From assembly GCF_009914755.1 (NCBI RefSeq), contig NC_060945.1: a stretch of 64,000 nucleotides of DNA; one strand, given 5' to 3'. The position numbers and the translations under genes were made by a program. The notes beneath the pieces are model-generated. The model was not told the DNA's origin. It saw only the letters and a list, made by a program, of their open reading frames with translations, and ran no database searches. This document shows, one piece after another, positions 8,411-64,000 of the stretch; positions within the stretch are counted from its first letter, which is position 1; each line of letters opens with the position of its first letter. This stretch comes from the human T2T-CHM13v2.0 reference genome, Homo sapiens.

Positions 8411-9037
<627 letters not shown>

Positions 9038-40396: not shown

Positions 40397-42238
40397 TTGA
40401 TGCCTTAGACCTCCCAGAACATGACATGTTTCTCAGAATGTGGCTGATGTCCAGGGCCATCTGTGGATGTTTCTGGGGACTTCTAGCTGATTTCCTTTAT
40501 GGTCTGTAGGGCACGGCCAAGAGGAGAAACCAGCCCAACCTCAGAATGGACAAAAGGCTCACTGCCCCAATGGCAACCACCAAACTGTCAGCAGTGCTTC
40601 TGAAAGGAAAGGTTTCATTCTGCAGAAAGCTCCTTGTTTGGCTTCTTTCTGATGCCAGGGAGGGGTACCAATCCCTGCATACCTGTGGTGCCTACGTTAC
40701 CATCTCTGCCTAGGATGTGCAATGGGCCCCTGCTCTCACTGCGGGGTTGACGTTACCTCCAGCTGGAGACCTGGGCTCCTGACACCGCCTGGCCTCTTTG
40801 TCCTTCTCTGGATGAGGGTGGAAAGGCTGTACCTGGTATTTCCCTAGGTCCTTGGTTTCCACCTTCTAAACATCCAGCAGGAGTGACCATGCCCAGCACC
40901 ACACCTGAAGTGGGACTCCCTTGTGGAGCAGCCAAGAAATCTACAGATGGAAGAATGCTCTGGTGAGATAAGCCACAGGGGTCCCTGGGGAGGATCTGGG
41001 GCCAGAGGATTCTGGAGGTTTCCAGCCTTGGGCTCTGTGGGAACTATGATCTGGAGATATTTTTTTCATTTAGGTCACCAAGAGACAACCCCTAACCCCT
41101 GAGCAAGGCATGGTCAAGCTCTGGCATGAGATTCTCTTCCAGCAATGCAATGCTTGCAGAGACAGGTACAAAAGCTGGTGACCAGGCCTGCTGTCCCCCA
41201 GGTAAGGACAGTGTGCTACCCACCCTCTGAGAGGTGGTGCCAGTCCACAGCACTGGGTGCCTGTACCCCTGGCTCTGCAGATACCGGTCATGGAAGTCCC
41301 ATGGAGGTCCTCCCCTCTCCACATTACCTTCTTGCTGCTTCTAGACTTCTTCTAGTCATTAAGCATGTTGAGCCATTTTTCTGTGCATCCGATCTGACAT
41401 TTTTGCTCTCAGATGAAACACGACAAAGTAAGCTGAGCCACCAGGATTCCTGGAGGGAACCTTGGATGCTTGGTCTTGGGCTCCAGGGCACTGATGGGAG
41501 GGAGCCAGGGAAGAACAAACACTGGGGCTGAGCCCCTATGACCCAATGGGAACTTGTGGCCTGTCCTTATGGCCCCAAGACACCCTGTCCTCAGGCCACA
41601 GGCACCACGGGCTTTGGTCAGATCCCAGCCTCCCAGTAGTGTCCCGGCACTAGTGGGTGCTGACCCCTGAGCCACAACCACAGTTCTGGGTTTGGGGTAT
41701 GGTAAAACCACCCCAGGGACAGAGTTCTGGGGCCGGGTTTGGGAGGAACCAAGGCACCTCCCAGGGATGGTGTGTCACTCCTACTTGCCATGAAATGTGC
41801 ACAAAGGCTGTCCTCCTGCCCATCCCATCCTGCTGGACAGGATGGAGGAAGTGAGGGAACAGGCAGCGTGGACAGCTAGGGTGCAGGGAGAGGCAGGTGC
41901 ATGCTGGGAGGTCAGGCCCTGTGAGGGCTGTGGGGGCATCAGGTGGAGTGGGCTTCAGGTACACCCTCAGTGCAATGGGCAGGTCTCAGGCCAGGCTTCC
42001 TGGACCCCGGCTGGGTGATGTGGTCACTCCCTGGGGGACTACTGTCAGACCCTGGCCACGCACCCTGGGCAGCACTGTCCCATCCCAGGACTGGATTTTC
42101 TGAGTCCTCAGACAGGAAAACACTGCCCAGGCCTGACAGACTGGGAAGACCTCTTAAGTCCTCCATCCCTAGACCAGCCTCCCAACAGCAGGGACAGTCT
42201 CCTACCTTTACCTTCAGGGCACTGACTGATCCATCTCA
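40397..42238 (-). pseudogene. Four fossil exons of a TBC1D3/TBC1D26/USP6(NL)-family RabGAP N-terminus (42238-42206, 41405-41328, 40940-40833, 40503-40397)
   Basis: AG...GT-flanked exons of 33, 78, 108 and 107 nt translating (some with frameshifts) EMD..SALKVK / QKCQIGCTEKWLNMLND*KKSRSSKK / ISWLLHKGVPLQVWCWAWSLLLDV*KVETKDLGKYQ / TIKEIS*KSPE..MALDISHILRN(HVMFW)..GIK, comparable to TBC1D26/TBC1D3 exons (recalled sizes 40/81/108/110). Confidence 0.8.
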
Positions 42239-42800
42239 CTCTAAGGCAACCAAGGCAGAGCTGAGGACCTGTGCCAGGCTGGAAGCCAGTCCCCTCCCTA
42301 AATAGGCCTTAGGGAAGCCTCATCCCTGTCCCAGTGCACTGCAAGTTTCAGCCCAGGAGACACATAGGGAAGGGAGGATGGGGCCTCCCCACTGGCTGAC
42401 CCTGGAAAAGCGGGACCTGGGAGAAGAGGGAGTGCAGGGCTGGCAGGGGATTCTCCAGGCCCATGGAGAGCTCAGTCTGCACCATGGGGCTGCCCCTCCT
42501 GGGCTGGAGGCTGTGCCCTCTGCAGGATCTGAGGAAGTGCAGTCCTGAGATGGGACAGTGCTACCCAGGTTGGGTAGCCAGAGCCTGACAATAGTCCCCC
42601 AGCAAATGACCACATCACCCAGCCAGGGTCCAGGGAGCCTGGGCCAAGACCTGCCCAGTGCACTGACGGTGCACCTGGAGCCCAGTCCACCTGATGCCCC
42701 AACAGCCCTCACTGGGTCTGACCTCCCAGCATGCACATGTCTCTCCCTGAAACTCAGCTGCCCACCCTGCCTGTTCCCTGGCCTCCTCCATCCTGTGCAG
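41832..42800. repeat. ~270-bp diverged inverted repeat (arms ~41832-42098 and ~42534-42800)
   Basis: caggatggaggaagtgagggaacaggcag...gcactgtcccatcccaggactg on + matches the reverse complement of 42534-42800. Confidence 0.9.
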
Positions 42801-42989
42801 CCCATAGACTGTGACCATCTCTCTGGCCACTCTGGTACTTCCTTTACTTTTGTCCTGTCAGAATCCCTGAGCAAGATCTCCCAGGTCCATCCAAACACCT
42901 GCTTTGTCCACTTTTGACTGGGCCATTGAACACCACTGGGCCATCCCAGCTGTCCACAGGGTCCTCGATAACATGCATTTCTCCTGACA

Positions 42990-43867
42990 TCTCCCTGCAG
43001 TGCTCAGCAGCCCCCACTGACCAGGTCCCTGCTGACCAGATCCAGCATATCAGATCCTCCCTGACCACACCCTCACTGACTAGACCCCCATCACCAGGCC
43101 TCACTAACTAGATTCCCGCTGACAGGCCCACAATGACCAGGACTCCACTGATGAGGACCTTACTGATAAGTCCTCACTTGTAAGGCCTCACTGACCAGGT
43201 CCTTACTGACAAGGCCTCGCTGATCAGGTTCCACCGATAATGACCCCATTGCCTGGTCCCACAGATGAAGCCCCACTGAGCAGGCCTCCAGGGAATAGGC
43301 TGCCAGTGACCAGGCTCCTACTAACCACGCCTGAGGTGACCAGATGCCCCTGACTGGGACTCTAATGAGTATGCCCCACTGAACAGGCATGCACTGCTCA
43401 GATCCCCGCTGACCTGGTCACCCCGTAGACCAGTGCTACAAAAGCCACCACTGATCAAGTCCTCTCTGACCAGGCCCCCACTGATTAGGTTCCACTGAGC
43501 AGCCTGCCCTGACCAGGGCCCCACTGACAAGCGCCTCTGCTGACTAGGTCCCATGTGGCCAGGCCTCCACTGAATAACACCCCTTGACCTGGTCACCAGT
43601 AACCCAGCCCAATCAGACAAGGCCACAACTAAGCCCCAGCTGACAAGGTCTCCACTGACCAAGTCCCACAGCCCAGGTTGGCATTGACCAGACACCAAAC
43701 ATTTGTCTGCCACTAGGAACCCACTCACCAAGAGCTGCACTACTAGATCCCTCTAATGAGACCCTCTCTAGGCAGACACCTGCTGACCACCCCCCACTAA
43801 ATAGGCCTCACTGACAAAGTCCCAACTGACTAGGTCCCCTGAGCAGGCCTACACTGATCAGGCCCCT
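42990..43867. repeat. Degenerate ~15-bp minisatellite, consensus ~AGGCCCCACTGACC(A)
   Basis: Recurrent cactgacc(a/t)gg core with ~15-nt spacing. Confidence 0.8.
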
Positions 43868-46800
43868 CCTAACCATATCAGAAGGCCAAGCGGCAATGAG
43901 ATGTTTCATATGGCAGGAGTAGGAGCAAGACAGAGAGAGGAAAGAGGTGTGACATCCTGTTAGACAACCAGATCACATAAGAACTCACCATCAGGACATC
44001 GGCATCAAGAAAACTAACCAATGGTGAAGGATCCTCCACCCACACCACCGCCCACTGTTTCCAGGCAGAAGCCTCCTGCAGAAGCAGAACCTCTTAGGAA
44101 ACATCCACTATGGCAGTGCAGAAGGAAAATATAGGCTTTGAGCCCCCACACAGGAGGCCACCTTCCTCCAGACTCCAGGTTCATAAGCCCACCAACAGCT
44201 CACACCCTCAGTATGGAAAAGCTACAGGCACTCGACACCAACCCAGCCCATGAGAGCAGCCATGGGGGCAACACCCTGCAAAGCCAGAGATGCACTGTCC
44301 TAGTAGAGGTTTCCCATGAGCCTCTGCCTCTGCAGCAAGTTACTCCCACCCTCCCACCACCCTACTGACGACCTACTCCTCCCCACACTACTCCTCCTTT
44401 TCCTTCCACCCCAACCCCCTCCCATCCAAGATTAAATCACCTCCCACCTGGCACACCTCCGACATTAAGGATGACACGTGAGTTTTACAGGGACACACAG
44501 CCAACCCATATTATTCTGACCCTGATACCCCAGAACCTCATGTCCTTCTCACAGAGCAAAACACAATCATGCCTTTTCAAAAGTTTCCAAAAGTCTTAAC
44601 TCATTCCAAATGTAAAAATTTCAAAGTCTCATCTGAGACAAGGTTACAATCCCTTCTGCCAATGAGTCCCTGAATTTAAAAGGGATTTCTTTTCCTTCAA
44701 GGTACAATAGGCATTGGGTAAGTTTTCTCAATCCAAAGGGAAGAAATTCCCCAGAAAAATAACACAAATGCAAGTCCAAACCCCAGCAGGACAGTATTCA
44801 TTCAATACAGTATCTCACAGCTCTGTAATCATCAAGAGAACTCACTATCATGCAGACAGCATTAAGGAGACAGTGTTAAACAATTTATGAAGAATCCAAT
44901 CCCCACCCTCATCTTTCACACCCATCCACAAAATAATCTCCACCATTCTCCCCACACCCCTACCTCCAACACCCACTCTTCGCCATGATTAAATCACCTC
45001 CCACCAGGCCCCACCTTTAACTTTCACCATCACAATTCCATGAGAGTATTGGTAGGGACAAAAAGTCAAATCATATTATTCTGACATGGGTCCCCCCCAA
45101 TCTCATATCCTTGTCACACTACAAAATACAATGATGCCTTCTGTACAGTCCCCCAAATTCTTAACTCATTCCAGCATTTACTGAAATGCCCAAAGCCCAG
45201 AGTCTCATCTGAGGCAAGTCTACAGTCCCTTCTGCTCATGAGCCACTGAATTACATATAAAGCAAGTTTACTACTTCCAAGGTGCAATGATTGTACAGGC
45301 GTTGGGTAAGCATTCCCAGCCAAAAGGAAAAAAATTGCCAGAAAGAAGCACAAAAAACAGATGGGGCTTACAGACCCCATGCAAGTCAAAAACCCAGCAG
45401 GCCAGTCATTGAATCCTACAGCTCCCAAATCATATTTTCTGAATCTGTATCCCACATCTGGAGCACAGGGGTGGATAGCTGGGCTCCCAAGGCCTTGGGC
45501 AGCTCAGCATCTGTGACTGTGCAGGGTCTATCCCCCACAGGTGACCTCATGGGCTGGGCTGGTGTTGAGTGCCTGTGGCTTTTCCACACTGAGGGTGCCA
45601 GCAGTTGGCGGGTCTATGAATCTGGGGTCTGGAAAATGGTGCATTCCTGTGTGGGCGCTACAACCCTATATGTTCCTTCTGTACTGCCCTAGTAAATGTT
45701 TCCCATGAGGCTCTGCCTCTTGGAAAAGCTGCTGTCTCAACACCCAGGTTTTCCCATACATACTCTGGAGTCTAGACAAAGGCTCCCAAGCCTCTAGTTT
45801 TGTGCTCTGTGCACCTGCTGGCTTAGTACTATGTGGAAGCCACCAAGGTTTGAAGCTTGCACCCCTGAAGCAGTGATGCAAGCTGTACCTGTGCATCTTT
45901 CAGCCGTGACTGGAGCTGGAGCTGGAGCTGGAGCTGCAGGGATGCAGGCAGCAGTGTCCTGAGGATGAACACAGCAACGCGACCATGGGACTCACCCAGG
46001 AAAGCATTCTTGGGTCCTAGAACTCGGGGCCTGTGACAGCAAGCTCTGCTGCAAAGGTCTCTGAAATGGCTTCAAGACCTTTTAACCTTGTCTTAGCTAT
46101 TAGCACTGGGCTCCATTTTATGCAAATTTCTGAAGCCTTCTTGAATTTTCCCACTGAAAATCAGCTTTGCTTTTTGACCACTTGGCCAGGCTGCAAATTT
46201 TCCAAACTTTTAAGTCCTGCTTCTCATTTAAATATAACTTTCAACTTGAGGTCATTTATTCAGTCACAGAGAAGACCACAGGCTGTTCAAAACAGACAAG
46301 ACACCTCTTGCGCTTTGCTGCCTACTTCATTTCACCAGATATACCCTAAATTATCACTCTCAAGTTCAAAGTTTCAGAGGTCTCCAGGGCAGGAACACCA
46401 TCCAGCCAAGTTCTTTGCTAAGGCAAAACAAAAGTAACCTTAACTCCTGTTCCCAGTAAGTTGCTCATTTTCATCTGAGACCTTCTAAGTCTGGCCTTCA
46501 CTGTCCATCCTTCAGTCACTCTTTTAATTATAGCTATGTAACAAGTCTCTATGGTCACCGTTTTAATTTAACACATCTCTACAATAGTCCAAATTTTCCC
46601 TCATCTTTCTGTCTTCTTCCAAGCCCCCCAAACTGTGCAGCATCTGGTCGTTACCCACGTCTGAACCTGCTTCTACATTTTCAGCTACCGTTGTGGCAGC
46701 CTGGCAATGTGGTAAAAGAAGAAAAGTCCATTTTCAGGGGGAAAATTCAAGAAGCCTTCAGATATTTGCATATAGAAGAAGCCAAATGCTAATAGTAAAA

Positions 46801-49800
46801 AAAAAAAAGATGAAGAAACCTTGAGGGCATTTCATAGCTCCACTTTACAGTACAAATTTTCTGTAGTATTATTTTTAAAAGAGGTTTAACTGGCTCATGT
46901 TTCTGCAGGCTGTAAAGGCAGCAAGTGGCTTCTGCTTCTGGGAGGACTCAGGAAGCCTCCCAATCATACCAAAAGGCCAAGTGACAATGAGATGTTCCAT
47001 ATGGCAGGAGTAAGAAGAAGATACAGAGAAGAAAGAGGTGCCACACCCGGTTATACAACCAGATCTCATGAGAACTCACTATCAGAAGATCAGCCTCAGG
47101 AAGATTAACCAATGGTGAAGGATCCGCCCGCACCACCCCTCGCTGTTTCCAGGCGGAAGCCTCCTGCAGAGGCAGAACCTCTTGGAGAACCTCTACCAGC
47201 GCAGTGCAGAAGGAAAATATGAGCTTGTAGCCCCCACACAGGAGGCCACCATCCTCCAGACAGGAGATTGATAAACCCACCAACAGCTTGCACTCTCTGC
47301 GTGGAAAAGCTACAGGCACTCAACACCAGCCCAGCCCATGAGAGCAGCCATGGGGGCTACACCCTGCAAAGCCACAGGTGCACTGCCCTAGTAGAGACTT
47401 TCCATGAGCCTCTGCCTCTGCAGCAGGCTACTTCCCCCTCCTACTACCCACCACCCTATCACCACCCTACTAACAACGTACTCCTCACCCTACCAACCCC
47501 TTTTCCTTCCACCCCCGGCCCCCGAACATCCATGATTAAATCACCTCCAGCCAGGCCCCACCTCCAATATTAAGGATTACAATTCACATGAGTTTTGGTA
47601 AAGAAACACAGCCAAATCATATTATTCTGACCCTGATCCCCACAGTCTCATGTCCTTCTCACAGAGAAAAATATATTCATGCCTTTTCAAAAGTTTCCAG
47701 AAGTCTTAACTCATTCCAACATTAACTCAAATGTAAAAAAATCAACATCTCATCTGAGACAAGTCTACAGTACCTTTTGCCTATGAGTCCCTGAATTTAA
47801 AAGGATGTTCTTTTCTTTCAAGGTACAATAATGGTACAGGCTTTGGGTAAGATTTTTCAATCCAAAGGGAAGAAATTTCCCAGGAAGAAAACACAAATGG
47901 GACCACAGGCCCAATACAAGTCCAAAACCCAGAAGGCCAGTATCCATTCAATCTTACAGCTCCAAAATCATGAAGAGAACTCACTATCACAAGGACAGCA
48001 ATAAGGAGAGTGTTTAATCATTTGTGAAGCATCCGTCCCCCACCCCCAATTTTCACTGCTCACCCGCACCATAAATCCCCCAGTCTCCCTAAGCCCCATC
48101 TTCCAACCCCCACCCTCCACCGTGATTAAATCACCTTCCTCCAGGCCCCACCTTTAACATTCCGATGACAATTCCACATGAGTTTTGGTAGAGACACAGA
48201 GCTGAATTTTATTATTCTGTCCCTGGCTCCCCAAATCTCATGTCCTTCTCACATTGCAAAATACAATGATGCCTTCCCTACAGTCCCCCAAAATCTTATA
48301 TCATTACAGTATTTATACAAATGTTGAAAGCTTAAAGTCTCATCTGACACAAGGCTACAGTTTCTTAGGCCCATGAGCCTCTGAAATATAACGCAAGTTA
48401 ACTACTTCCAAGGTACAATGCTTGTACAGGCATTGGGTAAGCATTCCCAGCCAAAAGGAAGAACGTTGCCGGAAAAAAACAAAACACAGATAGGACTTAC
48501 CGGCCCCATGAAACTACAAACCCAGAAGGCCAGTCATTCCATCCTACAGTTCCAAAATCACCCTTTTTGAAACCTTGTCCCACATCCAGGGCACAGGGGT
48601 GTGAGGGCTGGGCTTCCAAGGCCTTGGGCAGCTTGGCACCTGTGGCTTTGCAGGGTTTATGCCCCACAGCTGGCCTCATGGGCTCGGCTGGTGTTGAGTG
48701 CCTGTGACTTTTCCTCACTGAGAATACAAGTTGTTGGGGGGTCTATGAATCTGGGGTCTGCATGATGGTGGCCTCCAGTGTGGGGGCTCCAACCCCATGT
48801 TTTCCTTCTGCACTGCCCTAGTAGAAGTTTCATATAAGGCTCTGCCTTTTTGGGGTGCTTTTGCCTGGACACCCAGGCATTTCCATACATCTTCCAAAAT
48901 CTATAGAGAGGTTCCGAAGCCTCTAGTCTCATGCTCCGTCCGCCAGTGGCTTAACACTATGAGGAATTTACCAAGGCTTCTAGCCAGCACCCTCTGTAGC
49001 AGTGACCCAAGCTGTAGCTGTGCATCTTTCAATCATGGCTGGAGCTGGAGCTGGAGCTGGAGATGGAGCTGGAGATGGAGCTGCAGGGATGCAGGCAGCA
49101 GTGTCCTGAGGCTCCACACAGAGGGGGTCATGGAACTGGCCCAGGAAACTGTTCTTCTCTCCTAGGCCCCAGGGCCTGTAACAACAAGGGCTGCTGCAAA
49201 GGTCTCTGAAATGCCTTCAAGGCCTTTTCCCTATTGTCTTGTCTATTAGCACTGGGCTCCTTTTCATGCAAGTTTCCGAAGCCTTCCTCAATTTTCCCCC
49301 TGAAAATCAGCTTTTCTTTTGGACCACATGGCCAGGCCGCAAATTTTCCAAACTTTTGAGTTCTGTTTCTCATGTAATGTAAGAGTTGGGACTCATTTAA
49401 TGTAAGTCTCATCCAGAGGTCATTTCCTCCATCCCACATAAGAGCACAGGCTGTTCAATGGAAACAGGACAACTCTTGAGCTTTGCTGCTCAGTTCATTC
49501 CACCAGATACTCAGTAAATCATCACCCTCAAGTTCAAAGTTTCACAGATCTCCAGGGCGAGGTCACCGTGCAGCCACGTTCTTTGCTAAGGAAACAAAAG
49601 TAACTTTGACTTCTGTTCCCAGTAAGTGCTTCATTTTCATCTGAGACCTTCTAAGTCGGGCTTTCACTGACCATTTTCCTGTGAGCCTTCTGATCACAAA
49701 TGTTTAACAATTCTTTACAAAGATCCAAACTTTCATTCATCTTCTTGTCTTCGAAGCCCTCCAAACTCTTCCGACCTCTGTATGCTACTCCCTTCTGAAC

Positions 49801-52800
49801 CTGCTTCTACATTATCACTATCTTTGCCACAGCCTGGCAATGTGGTAAAGGAAAACAAGTCCATTTTCAGGGGGAAAATTCATGAAGCCTTCACATACTT
49901 GAATGAAAAGAAGCTGAGTGCTGATTGCCACGACAATGACATTTAATAGTTCCACTTTGCACTACTAATTTTCTCTATGATCATAAAGAAAAGAGGTTTA
50001 ATTGGCTCATGATTCTGCAGGCTGTAAGGAAACACAGTGGCTTCTGAATCTGGGAGGACTCAGGATGCCTCCCAATCATACCAGAATGTCCAGGGGCAAT
50101 GAGATGATTCATGTGGCAGGAGTAGGCACAAGACAGAGAGGAAAGAGGGCCACACCCTATTATACAACCAAATCTTATGTGAACTCACTATTACAAGGTC
50201 AGCATCATGAAGATGGTGCTTAAACATTGATGAAGGAACAACCACCCACACCCAACTCCCACTGTTTCCAAACAGAAGCCTGCTGCACAGGCAGAGCCTC
50301 TTGGAAAACCTGTACTAGGGCAGTGTGGAAGGAAAATATGAGCTTGGAGCCCCCACAGAGATGGCCACCACCCTCCAGACCCCAGATTCACAGACCCATC
50401 AGCAGCTCACACCCTCTGTGGAAAAGCTACAGGTTTTTCCAAACCTCAACACCAACCCAGCCCATGAAAGCATCTGCAGGGGCTCAACCCTGCAAAGCCA
50501 CAGGTGGATTGCCCTAGTAGAGGTTTTCCATGAGGCTTTGCCTCAGCAGCAGGCTACTCCCCCTTCCTACTACCCCCAACCCTCCCACCATTCTACTGCC
50601 AGCCTACTCCTCCCCACCCCAACCAACCATTTTGTGATACCCTACCTTGTTTTAACCTGATCGACTCTCCCTTAGCTGAGGGAGCCAGGCAGACTCCATC
50701 TTGGCTGTTTCACTTGCAGCCCCTTACACACATCCCTTCCTCAAGGACATAACTTGTGCAAGCTGACTCCCAGCACATCAACGAATGCAATTACTGACAA
50801 GATACTGTGGCAAGCTATATCCACAGTTCCCAGGAATTCACCCCGTTGATGGTACCTAAAACCCCCGCATTTCTGTCCAGTTGATAGCACCCAAAGCCCC
50901 CACCTCTATCACCTTTTGATGGATTTAAAGTCCCTGCACCTGGAACTGTTTGTTTTCCTGTAGCCATTTACCTTTTTAACTTTTTTGCCTGTTTTGCTTC
51001 TGTAAGATTGCTTCAACGAGGCCTCCCCTCCCCTTTCTAAACCAAAGTATAAAAGAAAATCTAGCCCCTTCTTCCGGGCCGAGAGAATTTTGAGCACTAG
51101 CGCTCTCTCAGTCGCTGGCAATAAAGGTCTCCTGAAGTCGTCTCATAGTGTGGCGTTTCTCTACCACTCGCTTGGTTACAACCCTTTTCCTTCCACCCCC
51201 CAACCCACCTCCAATCCATGATTAAATCATCGCCCCCAGGCCCCACTTTCAACATTTGGAATTACAATTCCACCTGAATTTTTTTAGGGACTCACAGCCA
51301 AACCATATTATTCTTACCCTGATATCCCAGAATCTCATGTCCTTATCACAGAGCAAAATACAATCATGCCTTTTCAAAAGTTCCAATAGCCTTAACTAAT
51401 TCCAAGTGTAAAAAGTTCAAAGTCTCATCTGAGACAAGGCTACTGCCCCTTCTGCCTATGAGTCCCTGAATTTAAAAGAGATTTCTTTTCTTTCAAGGTA
51501 CAATGATGGTAGAGGTATTGTGTAAGCTTTCTCAATCCAAAGGGAAGAAATTTCCCAGAAAAATAACACAAATGGGCCCACAGGCCCAGTGCAAGTCCAA
51601 AACCCAGCAGGACAGTATTCACTCAATCTCACAGCTCAAAAATCATTAAGAGAACTCATCGTCATGCGGAAAGCATTAAGGAGACAGTGTTTACCCATTT
51701 GTGAAGAATCTGTTCCCCCGCCCTCATCTTTCACTCCCATCCACAAAATAATCTCTCCCGTTCTCCCCACACCCCTACCTCCAACACCCACTCTTCTCCA
51801 TGATTAAATCACCTCCCACCAGTTCCCACCTTTAACATTCCCCCCTAAAATTCCACATGAATATTGGTAGAGACACAAATTCAAATCATATCATTCTGGC
51901 TCTTGCTCCCCAAATCTTGTATCCTTGTCACACTGCAAAATACATTGATGACTTCTTTACTGTCCCCCAAAGACTTAACTCATTCCAGCATTTACTAAAA
52001 TGTACAAGGACTTACAGACCCCATGCAAGTCAAAAACCCAGCAGGCCAGTCATTGAATCCTACAGCTCCAAATCATCTTTTCTGAATGGACATCTCTCAT
52101 CCGATCACAGGAGTGTCATGGCTGGGCTCCCAAGGCCTTGGGCAGCTCTGCACCTGTGGCTGTGCACGGTCTATCCCCCACAGCTGCCCTCATGGGCTGG
52201 GCTGGTGTTGAGTGCCTGTAGCTTTTCCAAACTAAGGTTGGAAAAGCCAGCTGTTGGTGGGTCTATGAATCTGGGGTCTGGAGAATGGTGCCTCCATATT
52301 TAGGGACCCCAGCCCTATATTATCCTTCTGTACTGCCCTAGTAAAGGTTTCCCATGAGGCTCTGCCTCTTGGAAAAGCTTCTACCTGAAAACCCAGGTTT
52401 TTCCGTAGATACTCTGGAGTCTAGACAAAGGCTCCCAAGCCTCTAGTTTTGTTCTCTGTGCACCTGCTGGCTTAACACTATGTGGAAGCCACCAAGGCTT
52501 GAAGCTTACACCCCTGAAGCGTGATGCAAGCTGTACCTGTGCATCTTTCAGCCATGGCTGGAACTAGAGCTGCAGGGATGCAGGCAGCAGTGTCTTGAGA
52601 CTGCACATAGAGGGGGGTCATGGAACTGGCCTAGGAAACCATTCTTCTCTCCGAGGCCCCAGGGCCTATGATAGCAAGGGCTGCTGCAAAGGTTTCTGAA
52701 ATGGCTTCAAGGCCTTTTCCCTATTGTCTTGGCTATTAGCACTGGGCTCCTTTTCATGCAAATTTCTAAAGCCTTCCTCAGTTTTCCCCTGAAAATCAGC

Positions 52801-55800
52801 TTTTCTTTTTGACCATTTGGCCAGGCTGCAAATTTTTGAGTTCTGTTTCTCATTTAATATAAGAGTTGGGACTCATTTAATGTAAGATCCATCCAGATGT
52901 CATTTTCTCGGTCACACATAAGGGCACAGGCTGTTTGATACAGACAGGACACCCCTTGAGCTTTGCTGTCCAGAAGTTCATTCCAACAGATACGCAGTAA
53001 GTCATCACCCACAAGTTCAAAGTTTCACAGATCTCCAGGGCAGTGTCACTGTGCATCCACGTTCTTTGCTACAGCAAAACAAAAGGCACCTTGGCTCCTG
53101 TTTGCAGTAAGTTCCTCATTTTCATCTGAGAGCTTCTCAATCTGATCCTTACCGTCTATTTTCCTATGAGTCTTCTGATCACAAGTATTTAACAACTTTT
53201 TACAAAGATCCAAACTTTCCCTCATCTCCCTGTCTTTGAAGTCCTCCAAACTCTCCAGAACTCCATCTGCTACCCCCTTCTGAACCTGCTTCTACATTTT
53301 CAGCTATCTTTGTCACAGTCTGGCAGTGTGGTAAAGGAAGACAAGCCCATTTTCTTGGGAAAAATTCAAGGGGCTTCAGATACTTGAATGAAAAGAAGCT
53401 GAGTGCTGATTGCCAAGACATTAGGGAGAAGGCCTTGAAGACATTTAATAGATCCACTTTGCAGTAATAATTTTCTCCATAATCATAAAGAAAAGAGGTT
53501 TAATAGGTTAATGATTCTGCAGGCTGTAAGGAAGCATAGTGGCTTCTGCACCTGACAGGACTCAGGAAGCTTCCCAATCATACCAGAATGTCAAGGGGCA
53601 AGGAGATGTCTCATATGGGAAGAGTAGGAGCATGACAGAGAAAGGAAACAGGTGTCATGTCCCATTATACAAGCAGATCTCATGAGAACTCACTATCACA
53701 AGGTCAGCATCAAGAAGATGGTGCTTAAACATTGGTGAAGGATCCGCCCCACACACCCAACTCTCACTGTTTCTAGGCAGAAGCCTCCTACAGATGCAGA
53801 GCCTCTTGGAAAACCTCTATTATGGAAGTGCAGAAAGAAAATATGGGTTTGGAGTCCCCACACAGGTGGCCACCAAACTCCAGATCCCGGATTCATAGAC
53901 CCACTAGCAACTCACGCACTTAGTGTGGTAAAGCTACAGGCCCTCAATACCAGCCCACCCCACGAGAACAGCTGAGGGGCTAAAACCTGCAAAGCCACAG
54001 GTGCACTGCCCTAGTAGAGGTTTTCCACGAGGCTTTGCCTCTGCAGCAGGCTACTCCCCCTTCCTACTACCCCCCACCCTCCCACCACCCTACTGCCAAC
54101 CCACTCCTCCCAATCCTACCCATCCCTTTTACCTTCCACCGCCACCAACTTCCTGTCCATAATTAAGTCACTTGCTTCAACATTAGGGATTACAATTCCA
54201 CATGAGTTTCATAGGGACACACAGGAAAACCATATAATTCTGACCCTGATATTCCAGAATCTCATGTCCTTATCACAGAGCAAAATACCATCATGACCTC
54301 TCAAAAGTTTGCAAAAGTCTTAACTCATTCCAAATGTAAAAAATTCAGTCTCATCTGAGACAAGGCCACAGTCCCTTCTGTCTATGAGTCCCTGAATTTA
54401 AAACGGAGTTCTTTTCTTTCAAGGTACAATGATGGTAGAGACATTGTGTAAGCTTTCTCAGTCCAAAGGGAAGAAATTTCCCAGAAAAATAACACAAATG
54501 GGCCTACAGGCCCAATGCAAGTCCAAAACCCAGCGGGACAGTATTCACTCAGTCTCTCAGCTCCAAAATCATCAAGAGAACTCACTATCATGTGAACAGC
54601 ATTAAGGAGAGCGTGTTTATCCATTTGTGAAACATCCGCCCCCCACCCTCATCTTTCACTCCCACCCACAAAAAAATCTCTTCTATTCTCCCCACTCCCT
54701 TACCTCCAACCCCCATGCTTCTCCATGATTAAATCCCCTCCCACCAGGCCCCATTTTTAACATTCCCCATTATAATTCCACATGATTTTGGTAGGGATGC
54801 AGAGTCAAATCATATTATTCTGACCCTGGCCCCCGTATCTCATGTTCTTCTCACACTGCAAAATACCATGATGCCTTCTCTACAGTTTCCCAATCTCTTA
54901 ACTCATTCCAGCATTTACTGAAATGTCCAAAGCCCAAAGTCTCTTCTGAGACAAGGCTGGGGTCTCTTCTGCCCCTGAGCCTCTGAAATACAAAGTAAGT
55001 TAACTACTACCAAAGTACAGTGATTGTACACACATTGGGTAAGTATTCCCAGCCAAAAGGAAGAAATTAGCCAGAAAGAAGAACAAAACACAGATGGGAC
55101 TTACAAACCCCATAGGAGTCAAAAATCCAACAGCCAGTCATTGAATCCTACAGTTCCAAACCATTTTTTTTGAATCCAGATCCCACATTCAGAGCACAAG
55201 GGTATGAGGCCTGGGCTCCCAAGGCCTTGGGCAGCTCTGCACCTGTGAAGTTGCAGGGTCTAACCTCCACAGTTGTCCTCATGGGCTGGGCTGATGTTGA
55301 ATACCTATAGGTTTTCCACAATGAGGGTGCAAGCTGCTAGTAAGTCTATGAATCTGGTGTTTGCAGAATGGTGCCTCCCTGTATTGGGGTTCCAACCCTA
55401 TATTTTCCTTCTGTACTGCCCTAGTAAAGGAGGCTCTGCCTCTTGGAAAAATTTCGACCTGGACACCCAACTTTTTCCATACATACTCTGGAGTCCAGAC
55501 AAAGGATCCCCAGCCTCCAGTTTTGTGCTCTGAGCACCTGCTGGCTTAACACTATGTGGAAGCCACCAAGGCTTGCAGTTTGCACCCTCGGAAGCAGTGA
55601 CCCAGGCTGTACCTGTGCATCTTTCAACCATGGCTGGAGCTGGAGCTTCAGGAATCCAGCCAGCAGTGTCCTGAGGATGGACATAGCAGCGGGGTCATGG
55701 GGCTGGAGAAGGAAACCATTCTTTTCTCCCAGGCCTCAGGGCCTGTGATAGCAAGGGCTGCTGAAAAAGTCTCTGAAATGCCTTCAAGGCCTTTTTAACA

Positions 55801-58800
55801 TTGTATTGGCTATTAGCACTGAACTCCATTTTATAAACATTTCTGAAGCCTTCTTGAACTTTCCCACTGATAATAAGCTTTTCTTTTTGACCACTTGGCC
55901 AGGCTGCAAATTTTCACAACTTTTAATCTCTCCTTGTCATTTAAATATGTTTCACCTTGAGGTCATTTCTTTGGTCACATATTTTCATGTGAGACCTTCT
56001 AAGCCTGGTGGTCACTGTCCATCCTTATGTCACCTTCTTAATTATAACTATTTAACAAGTCTCTACACTGATCCAAACTTTTCCTCATCTTCCTGTCTTC
56101 TTCCAAGACCTCTAAACTCTCCAACCTCTGGCCATTACACACTTCTTAACCTGCTTCTACATTTTCAGCTACATGTGTCACAGCCTGGCAATGTGGTAAA
56201 AGAAGAAAAGTCCATTTCAGGAGAAAAATTAATGCAGGCTTTAGACGTTTGCCTGAAAAGAAGCTGAGTGCTGATTGCCATGACAATAGGGAAAAGGTCT
56301 TGAAGGCATTTCATAGCTCCACTTTACAGCATTAATTTTCTGTATAATCAGAAAGAAAAGAGGTTGAACTGGCTCATGGTTCTGCAAGCTTTAAATAAAT
56401 CATAGAGGCTTCTGCTTCTGGGAGGACTCAGGAAGCCTCCCAATCATACCAGAAGACCAAGCAACAATGGGAAGTTTTATATGGCAGAAGTAGAAACAAG
56501 ACAGAGAGGAAAAAGGTGGCACACGTTGTATAAACCTGTTATACAACCAGATTTCCTGAGAACTCACTATCACAAGGTCAGCATCAAGAAGATGTTGCTT
56601 AACCATTGGTGAAAGATCTGCCCCCTACCACCCCCACCCCCCACTGTTTCCAGGCAGAAGCCTGAGGCACAGGCAGAGCCTCTTGGAAAACCTCTACTAG
56701 GGCAGTGCAGAAAAAATATATGGGCTTGGAGGCCCCACGCAACCATCCACCAGACCACAGATTCATAGACCCAACAATAGCTTGCATTCTCAGTATGGAA
56801 AAGCCACAGGCACTCAACACCAGCCCAGCCGACGAAGGCAGCCATGGGGGCTAATGCCTGCAAAGCCACAGGTGCACTGCCCTGGTAGAGCTTTTCCATG
56901 AGGCTCTGCCTCTGCAGCAGGCTACTCCCTCTTCCTACTGCCCACCACACTCTCACCACCCTACTGCCAGCCTACTCCTCCCCACCCTACCCACTTGTTT
57001 TCCCTTCCACCCCTACCAACCTCCCATTTGTGATTAAATCACTTCCCACCAGGCCCCACCTGCAACAGTCAGGAATACAATTCACCAAGAGTTTTTGTAG
57101 GGAAACACAGTCAAACCATATTATTCTGACCCTGAAACCCCCACATCTCATGTCCTTCTCACACAGAAAAATACAAACATGCCTTTTCAAAAGTTTCCAA
57201 AAGTCTTAACTCATTCCAGCAGTAACTCAAATGTAGTAAGTTCAAGTCTCATCCAAGACAAGGCTGCAATCTCTTCTGCCTATGAGTCCCTGAATGTAAA
57301 AGACAATTCTTTTCTTTCAAGTTACAGTGATGGCACAGGCACTGGGTAAGCTTTCTCAATCCAAAGGGAAGATTTTCCCTGAAAAATAACACAACTGGGA
57401 CACAGGCCCAATCCGAGTCCAAAACCCAGCAGGACAGCATTCATTTATCATGAGAACTCACTATCGCACAGACTGCATTAAGGTGATAGTATTTAACCAT
57501 TTGTGAAGGATCTGCCACCCATCCCCATGTTTCACCCTCACCCACACCATGAACCCCCATTCTCCCACATCCACCTTCCAACCCCCATTCTCTACCATGA
57601 TTAAATCACCTTCTACCAAGCCCCACATTTGACATTCCCCATTACAATTCCACATGAGTTTTGGAAGGGACACAGAGCCAAATCATATTATTCTCCCCTT
57701 GGTCCCCAACCTCATGACCTTCTTATACTGCAAAATATAATGATGTGTTCTCTAAGGTCCCCCAATGTCTGAACTCATTCCAGCATTTACTCAAATGTCC
57801 ATTTGTGAAGGATCCACCCCCCACCCCTCCCTTTCAGCCACAAATGCACCACAATCCGCCAACACTCCCCACCCACCTATAGCCCCAACCCTCCACACCA
57901 CCCCCAGCATCCACCCTCCATGCTCCACCATGATTAAATCACCTTCCACCAGCCCCCACCTTTAACATTTCCCATTAAAATTCCACATGAGTTTTGGTAG
58001 AGACACAGAGCCAAAACATATTATTCTGCCCCTGGTCCCCCAAATCTCATGTCTTTTTCATATTGCAAAATGCAATGATGCCTTCCCTAGAGTCCCCTAA
58101 ATCTCAACTCATTCCAGCCTTTACTCAAATATCCAAAGCCCAAAGTCTCTTCTGAGACAAGGCTGCAGTCTCTTCTGCCCTGAGACTCTGAAATACACAG
58201 CAAATTAACTACTTCCAAGGTACAATGACTGTACTGGCATTGGTTAAGCATTCCCAGGCAAAAAGAAGAAATTTGCCAGAAAGAAGCATAAAACACAGAT
58301 GGGACTTACAAACTCCCTGCAAGTCAAAAGCCCAGCAGACCAGTCATCCATCATACACCACCAAATCACCTTTTTGGAATCTATGTCCACATCCAGAGCA
58401 CAGGGTGATGTGACAGCTGGGATCCCAAGGCCTTGGGCAGCTCTGCACCTGTGGCATTGCAGAATCTTTCCCCTACAGTTGCCCTCATTGACTAGGCTGG
58501 TGTTGAGTGCCTGTAGCTTTTCAACACTAAGGGTGCAAGCATCTGGTGCGTCTATGAAACTGGGGCCTGGAAAATGGTGCCTCCCTGTATGGGGACTCCA
58601 ACCCTATACTCTCCTTGTGTACTGCCTGAGTAGAAGTTTACGATGAGGCTCTGCCTCTTGGAAAAGCTTCTGGCTGGACAATCAGGCTTTCTGATACATC
58701 CTCTGAAGTCTAGATGAAGGCTCAGAAGCTTCTAGTCCTTGCTTTATGCAACTGCTGGCTTAACACCTTGTGGAAGCCACCAAGTCTTCGAGCTTGCATC

Positions 58801-61800
58801 CTCTGAAGCAGTGACACAAGCTGTACCTGTGCATCTTTCATCCATGGCTGGAGCTGGAGATGGAGCTGCAGGGATGCAGGCAGCAGTGTCCTGAGGCTGC
58901 ACACAGCAGTGGAGCCATGGGGCTGGTGCAGGAAACCATTCTTTTCTCCTGGGCCCCGGGGCCAGTGACAGCAAGGGCTGCTACAAAGGTCTCTGAAATG
59001 CCTTCAAGACCTTTTTCCCATTGTCTTGAATTATTAGCACTGGGATCCTTTTTATGCAAATATCTGAAGCCTTCTTCACTTTCCCCCAGAAAATCAGCTT
59101 TTCTTTTTGACCACTTGTGCAGATTACAAATTTTGCGTATGTTTAAACTCTCCTTCTCATTTAAATATAAGTTCCAACTTATAGTCATTTCTTTGATCAC
59201 ACATAGGTGCGCAGGCTGTTCAATGTAGGCAGGACAACTCTTGAGCATTGTTGCTTAGAAGTTCATTCTACCAGATACACTCTAAATCATCACCCTCAAG
59301 TTCAGTTTCACAGATCTCCTGGAAAGGATCAATGTGTAGTCAATTACTTTGCTAAGGCAAAACAAAAAAACCTTGGCTCCTCTTCCCAGTGAGTACTTCA
59401 TTTTCACCTGAGATCTTGTAAGCCTGACATTCACTGTCCATCCTTATGTTAGCCTTTTAATCACAACTATTGAACAAGTCTCTGCAATGGTCCAAACTTT
59501 CCCTCATCTTCCTGTTTTCTTCCAAGATCTCCGAACTCTCTAACCTCTGGCCATTACCTAATTCAGAACCTGCTTCTACACTATCAGGTATCATTTTCGC
59601 AGCCTGGCAATGTGGTAACAGAAGAAAAGTCTATTATCAGGGGGAAACATCAAGATGGTATCCAATATTTGCATTGAAAAAAGCTCAGTGCTAATAACCA
59701 AGAGATTGGGGGAAGGCCTAGAAGTCATTTCATAGCTTCACTTCGCAGCATTAATTGTCTGTATGTACATAAAGAAAAGAGGTTTAGTTGACTCACAGTT
59801 CTTCAGGCTATAAAGAAAGCATAGTGGATTCTGCTTGTAGGAGGACTCAGGAAGCCTCCCAATCAAACCAGAGGCCAAGCAGCAATGAAATGTTTCATAT
59901 GCCAGAAGTAGAAGCAAGACAGAAAGAGGAAAGAGGTGCGACATCCTCTTATACAACTAGATCTCATGAGAGCTCACTGTCAGGAGATCAGCATCAAGAA
60001 GATGGTGCTTCACTGTTGGTGAAGGAACCGCCCACCACCCCATATCCACCACCCACTGTTTCCAAGTAGAAGCCTGAGACAGAGGCAGATCCTCTTGGAA
60101 AACCTCTACTATGGCTGTTTAGAAGAAAACTATGGGCTTGGAGCCCCCATGTAGGATACCAGCATCCTCCAATCCCCAGATTCATAGAACCATCAACAGC
60201 TCACACCCCCAGTATCGAAAAGCTACAGGCACTCAACACCAGCCCAGCCCATGAGAGCAGCTACAGGTGCTAAACCCTGCAAAGCCCCAGGTGCACTGCC
60301 TTAGTAGAGTTTTTCCATGAGCCTCTGCCTCTGCGGCAGGCTACTCCCATCCTGCTACACACCACCCTACAGCCAGCCTACTCCTCCCCACCTTACCCAC
60401 CTGTTTTGACTTCCAATCCAACCCCTCTCCCATCCATGAATAAATCACCTCCCACCAGGCCTCACCTGCAACATTGGGGATTACAATTACATGTGAGTTT
60501 AGGTAGGGACACACAGCTAAACAATATTATTCTGACCCTGATCCCCCAAATATCATATCCTTCTCACAGAGTAAAATACAATCATGCCTTTTCAAAAGCT
60601 GCCAAAAGTCTTAAGTCATTTCAGCATTAACTCAAATTTAAAAAGTTCAAAGTCTCACCTGAGAAAAGGCTACAGACCCTTTGGCCTATAAGTTCCTGAA
60701 TTTAAAAGGGATTTATTTTCTTTCAAGATACAAAGATGGTACAGGCATTGGGTAAGTTTTGTCAATCCAAAGGGGAGAGGTGTGCCAGGAAAATAACACA
60801 AATGGGATCACAGGGCCAATGCAAGTCCAAAACCCAGGAGGCCAGTATCCATTCAATCTCACTGCTCCAAAACAATCACAAGAACTCATCATCATGAGGA
60901 AAGGATTAAGGAGATGGTGTTTAACCATTTGTGAAGGATCCTACCCCCACCCCCACTTTTCACCCCTCACCCCCACCATAATCCACCCATTCTCCCCAAT
61001 CCCCACCTTCCAATACCCAGTGCCCTCCACGATTAAATCACCTTCCACCTGGCCCCACTTTCAACATTTCTGATTACAATTCCATATGAGTTTCCATAGG
61101 GACACACAGCCAAATCTTATTATTCTGTCCCTGCCCCACAAATCTCATGTCCTTCTCACTTTGCAAAATACAATGATGCCTTACTTACCATTCCCCAAGC
61201 CACTGTGCTTTTTTTTTTACAGCCTGCAGAACCATGAGCCCATTAAACCCCTTTTTGTTATGATCATACAGAAAATTAGTATTGTGAAGTGAAGCTATGA
61301 AATGCCTTCAATGACTTTTCCCCATCATCTCGGCTAAGACCCCCAAGGTCTTAACTCATTCCATCATTTACTCAACTGTCTGAAGCCCAAAGTCTCATCT
61401 AAGACAAAGATGCAGTCCCATCTCCTCCTGAGCCTCTGAAATACAAAGCAAGTTAACTACTTCCAAGGTATGATTGTCCAGACATTGAGTAAGAATTCCC
61501 AACCAAAAGGAAGATTTATGCCAGAGACAAGAACAAAACACAAACGGGACTTATAGGTCCCATGAAAATCCAAAACCCAGCAGGCCAGTTATTCAAACCT
61601 ACAGCTCCAAAGTCATCCTTTTTCAATCCTTGTCCCACATCCAGGGCACAAGTGTATGAGGGCTGGGTTCCCAAGGCCTTGGGCAGCACTCTACCTGTGG
61701 CTTTGCAGTGTTCAGTCCCCACAGCTGCCCTCATGGGCTGTGCTGGTGTTGAGTGCCTGTAGTTTTTACCCACAGAGGGTACAAAGTTCTTGGTGGGTCT

Positions 61801-64000
61801 ATGAATCTGGGGTCTGCATGATGCTGGCATCCAGTGTGGGTGCCCCAACCCCATATTTTCCTTCTGCAATGCCCTAGTAGAGGTTTCCCAGGAGTCTCTG
61901 CTTTTTTGGCAGCCTTCTGTCTGGACACCAAGACACTTTCATACATCTTCCGAAATCTGTATGAAGGCTCCAAAGCCTCTGGGCTAGTGCTCTGTGCACT
62001 CGCTAGCTTAAAACTATATGGAAGCCATGAAGCCTTACAGCCTGTACCCTCTGAAGCAGTGATGCAATCTGTACCTGTGCATCTTTCAGCCAAGGTCGGT
62101 GCAGGAGCTGGGGCAGCCGGGTTTCAGGCAGCAGTGTCCTGAGGCTGCACACAGCAGCAGGGTCATGGGGCTGGCCCAGGAAACCATTCTTCTCTAATAG
62201 GCCCCAGGGACTGTGACAGCAAGGGCTGCTGCAAACATCTCTGAAATGCCTCCAAGGCTTTTTCCCCCAGTGTCTTGGCTATTAGCACTGGCCTCCATTT
62301 TATGCAAGTTTCTGGAGCCTTCATGAATTTTCCCCCTGAAAATCAGCTTTTCTTTTTAACCACTTGGCCAGGCTGCGGATATTCCAAACTTTTGAGCTCT
62401 GCTTGTCATTTAAATATAAGTTCCAACTTGAGGTCATTTCCTCGGTCACACATAACCTCGGTCACACATGAAAGCACAGGCTGTTTGATGCAGACATGCC
62501 CCCACCCTTGTGCTATGCTGCCTAGAAGTTCTTTCCACCAGATATGCACTAAATCTTCACCCTAGAGTTCAAAATTTCACAGATCTTGAGGGCAAGGTCG
62601 CCCTGCAGCCATGTTCTTTGCTACAGCAAAACAAAAGCTAACCTTGGCTCCCGTTCCCAGTAAGATCCTCATTTTCATCTGAGACCTTGTAAGCCTGGCC
62701 TTCACTGTCCATCCTTCTGCCAGCCTTTTAATCACAACTATTTAACAAGTGCCTACAATGGTCCAAATTTCCCTTCATCTCCCTGCCTTCTTTCAAGATC
62801 TCCAAACTCTCCAACCTCTGGCTGTTACCCACTTCTGAACCTGCTTTACATTTTCAGCTATCTTTGTTGCAGCCTGGCAATGCAGAAGAAAAAGAAGTCC
62901 ATTTTCAGGGGGAAAACTTCAGGAAGCCTTCAGATATTTGCATTAAAAAGAAGTCCAGTGCTAATAGCCAAGAAGATGGGGAAATGTCATTGAAGATATT
63001 TCATAGCTCCACTTCGCAGTACTTTATTTTCTGCATGATCATAACGAAAAGGGGTTTAATTGGCTCATGGTTCTGCAGGCTGTAAAGAAAGCATAGTGAC
63101 TTCTGCTTCTGGGAGGACTCAGGAAGCCTCCCAATCATACCAGTAGGAAAACAGCAATGAAATGTTTCATACAGCAGGAGTAGGAGCAAGGCTGAGAGAG
63201 GAAAGTGGTGCCACACCGTCCTATAACCAGATCTCATGAGAACTCACTATCACTAGGTCAGCATCAAGAAGATGGTGCTTAAACATTGGTGAAGGATCCG
63301 CCCCCCAACACAGCTCCACCCCCTACCGTTCCAGACAGAAGCCTGCTGCAGAGGCAGAGGCTCTTGGAAATCCTGTACTGTGGCAGTGCAGAAGGAAAAT
63401 AAGGGCTTTGAGTGACTATGCAGGAGGCCACCAGCCTCTAGACCCCAGATTCATAGACCTACCAACAGTTCACACCCTCAGTATGGAAAAGTGATAGGCA
63501 CTCAACACCAGCCAAGCCTATGAGAGCAGCCTTGTGGGCTAAAGCCTGCAAAGCCACAGGCGCACTGCCCTGGTAGAGGTTTTCCAAGAGCCGCTGTCTC
63601 TGCAGCAGGCTACACCCCCTTCCTACTACCCACCACCCTCCCACCACCCTACAGCCAGCCTACTCTTCCCCACCCTACCCACCCCTTTTTTCTTCCACCC
63701 CTACCCCTCCCATCCATGATTAAATAATCTCCCACCAGACCCCAACTCCAACATTTGGGATTACAATTCCACATGAGTTTTTCCAGGGGCACACAGCCAA
63801 ATCATATTATGCTGACCTTGACCCCACCAAATCTCATATCCTTCTCACAGAATAAAATAAAATCGTGTCTTTTCAAAGTTTCCAAAAGCCTTAACTCATT
63901 CCCACATTAACTCAAATGTAAAAAGTTCAAAGTCTCATCTGAGACAAGGCTACAATCTCTTCTGCCTATGAGTCCCTGAAGTTAAAAGGGTGTTCGTTTC
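43868..64000. repeat. MST (MaLR) LTR/internal-derived macrosatellite, ~2.9-3.5 kb units, about 6.5 units, continuing past the window end
   Basis: Marker aaaagaggtt (diverged to aaaaggggtt in the last) recurs at ~46877, 49989, 53491, 56356, 59775, 63047; units are made of MST LTR and MST-int pieces in mixed orientation. Confidence 0.92.
50633..51183 (+). mobile_element. Solo ERV1 LTR (LTR6A/B, HERV-S71-like) inserted in array unit 3
   Basis: TGTGATACCCTACCTTGTTTTAACCTGA start, TATAAAA at ~51048, AATAAA at ~51120, ends GGTTACAAC; imperfect 4-bp TSD (a/c)ttt; array sequence resumes on both sides. Confidence 0.75.

What the first reader, a model, noticed from the sequence alone, without database searches (positions are those of the whole stretch)
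43868..64000. Macrosatellite built from a scrambled MST retroelement
Seen: each ~3-kb unit has the same non-native order: LTR part, inverted internal segment, C-rich spacer, LTR end plus ~330 bp internal, second LTR piece, C-rich spacer, LTR end plus long internal segment, second inverted internal segment. Periods are ~3112, 3502 (with LTR6), 2865, 3419 and 3272 bp. Known: MST elements normally occur as solo LTRs or LTR-int-LTR. Inference: one rearranged element was tandemly amplified long ago (units are clearly diverged). Repeat annotation would shatter it into many fragments and hide the array.
Basis: partly seen in the sequence, partly recalled or inferred. Interest (0 to 1): 0.7.

Follow-up and report, generated by a model that had tools for sequence, protein, structure and literature searches.

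The report
Known LTR-array macrosatellite on chromosome 21
This is a 54-kb tandem array of roughly 3-kb units made of rearranged pieces of an old retroelement on human chromosome 21, likely grown by unequal crossing-over; it matches an array described in 2008, so it is real but not new.

Summary
It starts at window 43,865. The six full units in the window measure 3091, 3112, 3502, 2866, 3419 and 3272 bp. The non-native joins recur in 12-15 of 15 other units and in 0-1 of 16 dispersed elements. The array continues past the window to about 97,670: 53.8 kb, 16 full units plus a partial one. It has a six-unit higher-order repeat (HOR, 94-96% between copies, 79-84% between unit types), one LTR insert per HOR and a three-unit deletion in the third HOR. 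These features match the 21q11.2 'LTR array' of Warburton et al. 2008 (PMC2588610): 53.8 kb, 16 units, MSTA/THE1 pieces, 6-mer HOR with LTR6A, three-monomer deletion. Their FISH primers match once per unit. Small additions here: the HOR junction is a hybrid of the last and first unit types, which marks the founding unequal crossover; the deletion crossover lies near 91,500; the CHM13 13q array is one HOR shorter than the published one. No long reading frame is left. Verdict: already known, low interest.

The parts
43865..64000 (.). Window part of the LTR array. The whole array runs on to about 97,670 in window numbering (53.8 kb, 16 full units plus a partial one); outside the window lie unit 15, a C/F hybrid with crossover near 91,500, and an LTR-internal-LTR remnant at 96,440-97,670
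   Evidence: size and unit count equal Table 3 of PMC2588610
43865..46955 (.). Unit 1 (type A), 3091 bp; begins inside an LTR piece
46956..50067 (.). Unit 2 (type B), 3112 bp; 95% to units 8 and 14
46877..47140 (-). LTR piece that spans the unit 1/2 boundary (the boundary is arbitrary); right end approximate
   Evidence: element sense on the minus strand is inferred from the purine tract next to the LTR boundary near 48210
47148..47390 (+). First inverted internal piece (unit 2)
47379..47435 (-). Short direct internal piece that overlaps the source of the inverted piece (small fold-back)
47436..47525 (.). C-rich spacer 1; no match in dispersed elements
   Evidence: sequence, gap
47526..47971 (-). 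LTR end plus about 340 bp of adjoining internal region (part of an internal duplication about 0.59 kb long)
47975..48042 (-). Second short LTR piece
   Evidence: matches unit positions 112-181 of another unit
48043..48111 (.). C-rich spacer 2
   Evidence: sequence
48112..49826 (-). LTR end plus nearly the whole internal region, colinear with ordinary elements at 63-68%; stops about 30-40 bp short of the far LTR
49830..49938 (+). Second inverted internal piece
50068..53569 (.). Unit 3 (type C), 3502 bp, carries the LTR insert
50633..51183 (+). Solo LTR of another family, 551 bp, with a 4-bp target-site duplication; same site at 69.96 and 89.50 kb and on chr13 and chr18. The name LTR6A comes from PMC2588610
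53570..56435 (.). Unit 4 (type D), 2866 bp
56436..59854 (.). Unit 5 (type E), 3419 bp
59855..63126 (.). Unit 6 (type F), 3272 bp
63127..64000 (.). Start of unit 7 (runs to 66,309), a hybrid: first ~1.45 kb like unit 16 (type G), rest like unit 1 (type A); HOR junction near 64,600, just outside the window; unit 13 has the same switch near 84,160

Best explanation
This is the chromosome 21q11.2 member of the published 'LTR array' megasatellite family, a decayed tandem array of rearranged MaLR (MST-type) retroelement pieces that likely grew and still changes by unequal crossing-over and likely does no coding work. Order of events: (1) an MST-type element was rearranged once into a ~3.1-kb unit with an internal duplication, two inverted pieces and C-rich inserts (shared joins shown; single origin inferred). 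(2) Out-of-register exchange copied it into at least seven units, A-G, now about 20% apart (divergence shown; process inferred). (3) Blocks of this array were copied to other chromosomes inside segmental duplications (units group by type, not by chromosome: shown for the units sampled). (4) A solo LTR entered unit C once (same site in all five copies read in full: shown). (5) A crossover between units G and A, six units out of register, made the 19.3-19.6-kb HOR (hybrid unit shown on chr21 and chr13; crossover inferred). (6) A later C-to-F crossover removed three units from the third HOR on chr21 (hybrid unit shown).
For: Match to PMC2588610: 53.8 kb here (43,865 to ~97,670) vs 53.8 kb; 16 full units vs 16; 6-mer HOR; one LTR insert per HOR at 50.6, 70.0 and 89.5 kb; three-unit deletion in the third HOR. 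Their primer 1A matches once in each of 16 units and 1B once in each of 17 (0-2 mismatches); in the window 6 and 8 matches against 0.01 and 0 expected (one of the 8 is a 3-mismatch hit in an inverted piece). Genome-wide 163 matches to 1A at up to 1 mismatch vs 2 for the control, 100 listed, and 76 exact matches to 1B vs 0, on 11 chromosomes together. Hybrid unit 7: 216 of 250 informative sites like G left of the switch, 270 of 304 like A right of it; same in unit 13 and in a chr13 unit; non-hybrid controls show no such switch. Tree of 32 units: seven type clades, each 100/100. Longest stop-to-stop frame in the window part is 171 aa (28 frames of 100 aa or more). CpG observed/expected is 0.13.
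Against: No coordinate lift from hg18 to CHM13 was run, so identity rests on matching features. No repeat library was on hand: the names MSTA, THE1 and LTR6A come from the paper, not from a call of mine. Gene conversion could also make hybrid units, though it would not by itself change unit number. How the first unit was scrambled (template switching during reverse transcription, or DNA repair after insertion) was not resolved. RefSeq lists a silencer at 47,002-47,202 inside an LTR piece, so some regulatory activity is not excluded.
Confidence: 0.96

Rival explanations
1. A hotspot of independent MST insertions and nested fragments that only looks periodic.
For: Units are only 79-84% alike across types, not far above their 63-72% to dispersed elements.
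Against: Four non-native joins recur in 15 of 15 other units and a fifth in 12 of 15, against 0-1 of 16 dispersed elements. Spacing is regular and the HOR copies are 94-96% alike.
Confidence: 0.01
2. The first concatemer arose in one step, as a multimer of a rearranged element made during reverse transcription or by rolling-circle copying of an excised circle, and unequal crossing-over only acted later.
For: The seven types join by very short inner branches (0.0025-0.015) against long type stems (0.04-0.08) in the tree, as a rapid burst would give. Units are head to tail with a backbone of one LTR and one internal region.
Against: A quick run of unequal exchanges gives the same star shape. The units lack the internal/LTR join on the side where reverse transcription is inferred to start, which is kept only at the distal end. 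All later steps that can be read are crossovers. This rival concerns step 2 only and does not change the identity of the array.
Confidence: 0.2
3. The array is kept by selection as a regulatory or heterochromatin element (for example a silencer block or an embryonic-factor binding array).
For: RefSeq silencer at 47,002-47,202 (annotation given with the finding). MSTA LTRs are modestly enriched in DUX4 peaks, 588 of 19,782 copies (table passage, PMC3836709). An 11-mer at the LTR end is identical in 16 places across the 16 units.
Against: The strict DUX4-type motif (recalled, from no call) is in 0 of 16 units and 1 of 16 dispersed loci. Units are not homogenised. Arrays vary in presence between people on the acrocentrics.
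Confidence: 0.07

Closest known systems
'LTR arrays' megasatellite family, 21q11.2 array (Warburton et al. 2008, PMC2588610)
   Same: [quoted passage not shown]
   Different: Units average about 3.2 kb rather than '~3.5 kb'. The text I read does not give the G/A hybrid junction, the crossover positions or the ordinary element at the distal end (figures not seen). The CHM13 13q array is about 41 kb against their 60.4 kb.
Dispersed MST-type MaLR elements (LTR-internal-LTR)
   Same: All pieces of the unit except the C-rich spacers map on them at 63-90%; about 1.7 kb is colinear.
   Different: Ordinary elements have two whole LTRs and none of the joins (0-1 of 16); they are single, not arrayed.
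Composite macrosatellites of T2T-CHM13 such as ACRO_Comp (Hoyt et al., 10.1101/2021.07.12.451456)
   Same: Kilobase units built of transposon pieces, arrayed, spread over several chromosomes, thought to grow by unequal crossing-over (passages).
   Different: Here nearly all of the unit comes from one element type, units are far more diverged and there is a HOR. The preprint's main text has no 'MST', 'MaLR' or 'LTR array'; its supplements were not seen.

Membership tests
LTR arrays (Warburton 2008), 21q11.2 array | Tandem monomers of about 3-3.5 kb | tested here: met
   16 units of 2866-3502 bp
LTR arrays (Warburton 2008), 21q11.2 array | Unit made of LTR and internal pieces in both orientations | tested here: met
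   Mapping on dispersed LTR-internal-LTR elements
LTR arrays (Warburton 2008), 21q11.2 array | Pieces are MSTA/THE1 by RepeatMasker | not testable with these tools
   No repeat library on hand; name taken from the paper. Element build (LTRs of about 0.37-0.42 kb, about 2 kb apart) fits MaLR by my own knowledge
LTR arrays (Warburton 2008), 21q11.2 array | Published conserved primer sites in each unit | tested here: met
   1A in 16 of 16 full units, 1B in 16 of 16 plus the partial unit; chance 0.01 and 0 in the window
LTR arrays (Warburton 2008), 21q11.2 array | Six-monomer HOR with one LTR6A insert in monomer C | tested here: met
   Offsets 19.26-19.57 kb at 91-97%; insert at 50.6, 70.0, 89.5 kb. 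The family name of the insert was not tested
LTR arrays (Warburton 2008), 21q11.2 array | [quoted passage not shown] | tested here: met
   43,865 to about 97,670; C/F hybrid unit 15
LTR arrays (Warburton 2008), 21q11.2 array | Same genomic coordinates after lift-over | not testable with these tools
   No lift-over tool; the array fills the 57-kb gap between CYP4F29P and SNX18P13 in the given annotation
Intact MaLR element | Two whole LTRs flanking a colinear internal region | tested here: not met
   In the repeat units the LTR is split and the far internal/LTR join is missing
Homogeneous macrosatellite under concerted evolution (D4Z4/DXZ4 type) | Near-identical units within an array | tested here: not met
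   79-84% across types, 94-96% between HOR copies; tree groups by type

The most novel reading that the evidence does not exclude
The LTR arrays are a neglected, still unstable macrosatellite family. Their founding crossover can be read in the sequence, HOR number differs between reference haplotypes (13q: about 41 kb in CHM13 vs 60.4 kb in hg18), a young exact 6,208-bp dimer repeat has arisen on chr9, and the near-identical arrays on chr13, 18 and 21 act as a copy-number-variable silencer block or as a site of exchange between these chromosomes.
Probability: 0.08. Interest if true: 0.5.

Novelty: already known. Interest (0 to 1): 0.12.

Why it matters
As a finding it adds little: the array, its HOR and its likely history were published in 2008. 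It is a clean record of how a retroelement becomes a satellite with a higher-order repeat. The hybrid units mark the crossovers, which makes the unequal-exchange model checkable base by base. I found no follow-up study in seven searches of the open library, so copy-number variation, ape history and chromatin state of the family seem little studied; that is the only opening.

Tried and rejected
Tandem Repeats Finder does not see the array (longest period 500; 7 short rows). A whole-unit search of the genome was not scored; short queries and patterns were used instead. A 431-bp query returned only array-type copies among the 40 candidates scored of 3021, so dispersed elements were picked from a 26-mer search (218 matches, 100 listed, 16 fetched, all plus-strand hits on contigs 1-3; 13 of 16 show an LTR-like direct repeat). 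Coding role rejected: longest frame 171 aa; no protein search was run. DUX4-array idea: strict motif (recalled) absent from 16 of 16 units; PMC3836709 gave no motif string in the text searched. Independent insertions rejected. In the tree I left out 7 of 39 units: chr21 hybrids 7, 13 and 15, and four hybrid or truncated units from 13q, chr9, 21p and 2q11. Papers searched by term without a mention of this array: PMC2836564, 10.1101/2021.07.12.451456, PMC11610602, PMC3836709, PMC12767296, PMC5687341, PMC7767330; passages only.

Full report
1. Observation. Self-BLAST of the window shows that 43,865-64,000 is a head-to-tail array with diagonals at 75-84% identity and short inverted matches. Tandem Repeats Finder misses it because its longest period is 500.

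2. Anatomy of a unit. I picked 16 dispersed loci from the 218 genome matches to a 26-mer of the unit; 13 of 16 show an LTR-like direct repeat, mostly about 2 kb apart. Unit 2 maps on them as: LTR piece (46,877 to ~47,140), inverted internal piece (47,148-47,390), short direct internal piece (47,379-47,435), C-rich spacer, LTR end plus ~340 bp internal (47,526-47,971), short LTR piece (47,975-48,042), C-rich spacer, LTR end plus nearly the whole internal region (48,112-49,826), inverted internal piece (49,830-49,938), then LTR again. So the backbone is one LTR and one internal region in normal order, with a ~0.59-kb internal duplication and two inverted pieces added. The element's sense is likely the minus strand, since a purine tract abuts the LTR boundary on that strand near 48,210 (sequence; inference). 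Probes across the five non-native joins span them in 15, 15, 15, 15 and 12 of 15 other chr21 units and in 0, 1, 0, 0 and 0 of 16 dispersed loci; two native controls pass in 16 and 11 of 16 dispersed loci (my own cut-off; the first control is biased by how the loci were picked). Independent insertion is therefore excluded.

3. Beyond the window. Stretches of the same genome show 17 unit starts up to 95,571 and an end near 97,670 in window numbering: 53.8 kb, 16 full units and a partial one. Units six apart are 94-96% alike and other pairs 79-84%, except the hybrids. A 551-bp solo LTR of another family sits at 50,633-51,183 with a 4-bp target duplication (ends set against 3 dispersed copies). 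It recurs at the same site at 69.96 and 89.50 kb and on chr13 and chr18 (five copies read at both ends; nine array copies rank first among 40 scored of 421 candidates). The distal end holds an LTR, an internally deleted internal region and an LTR, and keeps the join that the repeat units lack.

4. Traces of the mechanism. Units 7 and 13 are hybrids. In unit 7, 216 of 250 informative sites left of position ~1,477 follow unit 16 and 270 of 304 right of it follow unit 1; unit 13 gives 200 of 230 and 264 of 298; a chr13 unit switches at ~1,440. Two controls show no clean switch. This is what one crossover between the seventh and the first unit of an older array would leave, and it fixes the HOR length at six. 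Unit 15 follows type C up to ~91,490-91,520 and type F after it (327 of 357, then 158 of 162 sites against units 9 and 12), which is the three-unit deletion. Distances without CpG columns: 0.17-0.23 among the seven types (21 pairs), 0.036-0.063 between HOR copies on chr21 (8 pairs), 0.026-0.056 to chr13/18 units, 0.062-0.105 to chr2, 4, 9 and 21p units. A tree of 32 units (7 hybrid or truncated ones left out) has seven type clades at 100/100, each holding units of several chromosomes except C, for which only chr21 units were whole. With recalled primate calibrations (about 6% human-macaque) the HOR would be roughly 15-25 million years old and the types much older; this dating is inference and was not tested against ape genomes. 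No frame longer than 171 aa remains in the window part and CpG is depleted (0.13), as for old methylated repeat DNA.

5. Comparison with print. Warburton et al. 2008 (PMC2588610; I read the abstract, passages and all of section 8, not the figures) describe 'LTR arrays': ~3.5-kb monomers of MSTA and THE-1 LTR and MSTA-int pieces in both orientations, 25 arrays, the largest at 13q11, 18p11.21 and 21q11.2. [quoted passage not shown] Each of these is met here. Their primers match once per unit and mark clusters on chr1, 2, 4, 8, 9, 13, 14, 18, 20, 21 and 22 (one search lists 100 of 163). They also proposed nearly the same order of events. Giordano et al. 2007 (PMC1914374, passages) already show a 22-kb LTR array of ~3-kb repeats on chr9 in a supplementary legend. 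No lift-over was possible, and the family names are the paper's. Seven searches returned no later study of the family; subscription journals and the supplements of Hoyt et al. (bioRxiv) were not seen and may treat it.

6. What is added here. The G/A hybrid as the HOR junction, the crossover positions, the ordinary element at the distal end, and a shorter 13q array in CHM13: 17,960,507 to about 18,001,500, about 41 kb and 12 full units (9 kb in the middle not fetched, bridged by primer hits), with two LTR inserts, against 60.4 kb and 18 units in hg18. The difference is one HOR. These are details of a known object.

7. Verdict. Already known. Interest 0.12.

Noticed in passing
G000:C13:17960507-18001500 (L008-L010, L035): The 13q array in CHM13 is about 41 kb with 12 full units and two LTR inserts, one HOR (about 19.4 kb) shorter than the 60.4 kb and 18 units listed for hg18 in PMC2588610. 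Copy-number polymorphism or an old assembly difference.
   Followed up: partly
G000:C9:77818447-77837071: Primer 1B hits recur at exactly 6,208-bp steps four times and primer 1A hits at the same step: a young two-unit higher-order repeat in a chr9 array, not mentioned in the text of the 2008 paper that I read.
   Followed up: no
G000:C21:299801-311154, 6594209-6605542, 7517599-7532000: Three more, smaller arrays on the short arm side of chr21, with matching ones on chr13, 14 and 22; fits the short-arm arrays seen by FISH in 2008. The 7.52-Mb one starts with a C/D-like hybrid unit without the LTR insert.
   Followed up: partly
L014 (G000:C9:77814790-77817973): A chr9 unit whose second half follows type F at about 90% and whose first half follows neither C nor F closely: a separate crossover scar.
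   Followed up: partly
window 43015-43860: Degenerate 14-15-bp / 29-bp C-rich repeat directly before the array start (TRF 43015-43229; similar motifs continue to 43,860).
   Followed up: no
window 41832-42112 and 42519-42801: Inverted repeat of about 283 bp at 85% identity, 400 bp apart, in GC-rich DNA between CYP4F29P and the array.
   Followed up: no
window 8412-9035: Two Alu-sized repeats head to head that form a 620-bp near-palindrome at 76%.
   Followed up: no
window 45910-45936 and 49038-49083: A CTGGAG hexamer run inside the internal segment varies in length from unit to unit.
   Followed up: no
window 47002-47202: The RefSeq silencer given in the annotation lies on the LTR piece and the first inverted join of unit 2.
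   Followed up: no
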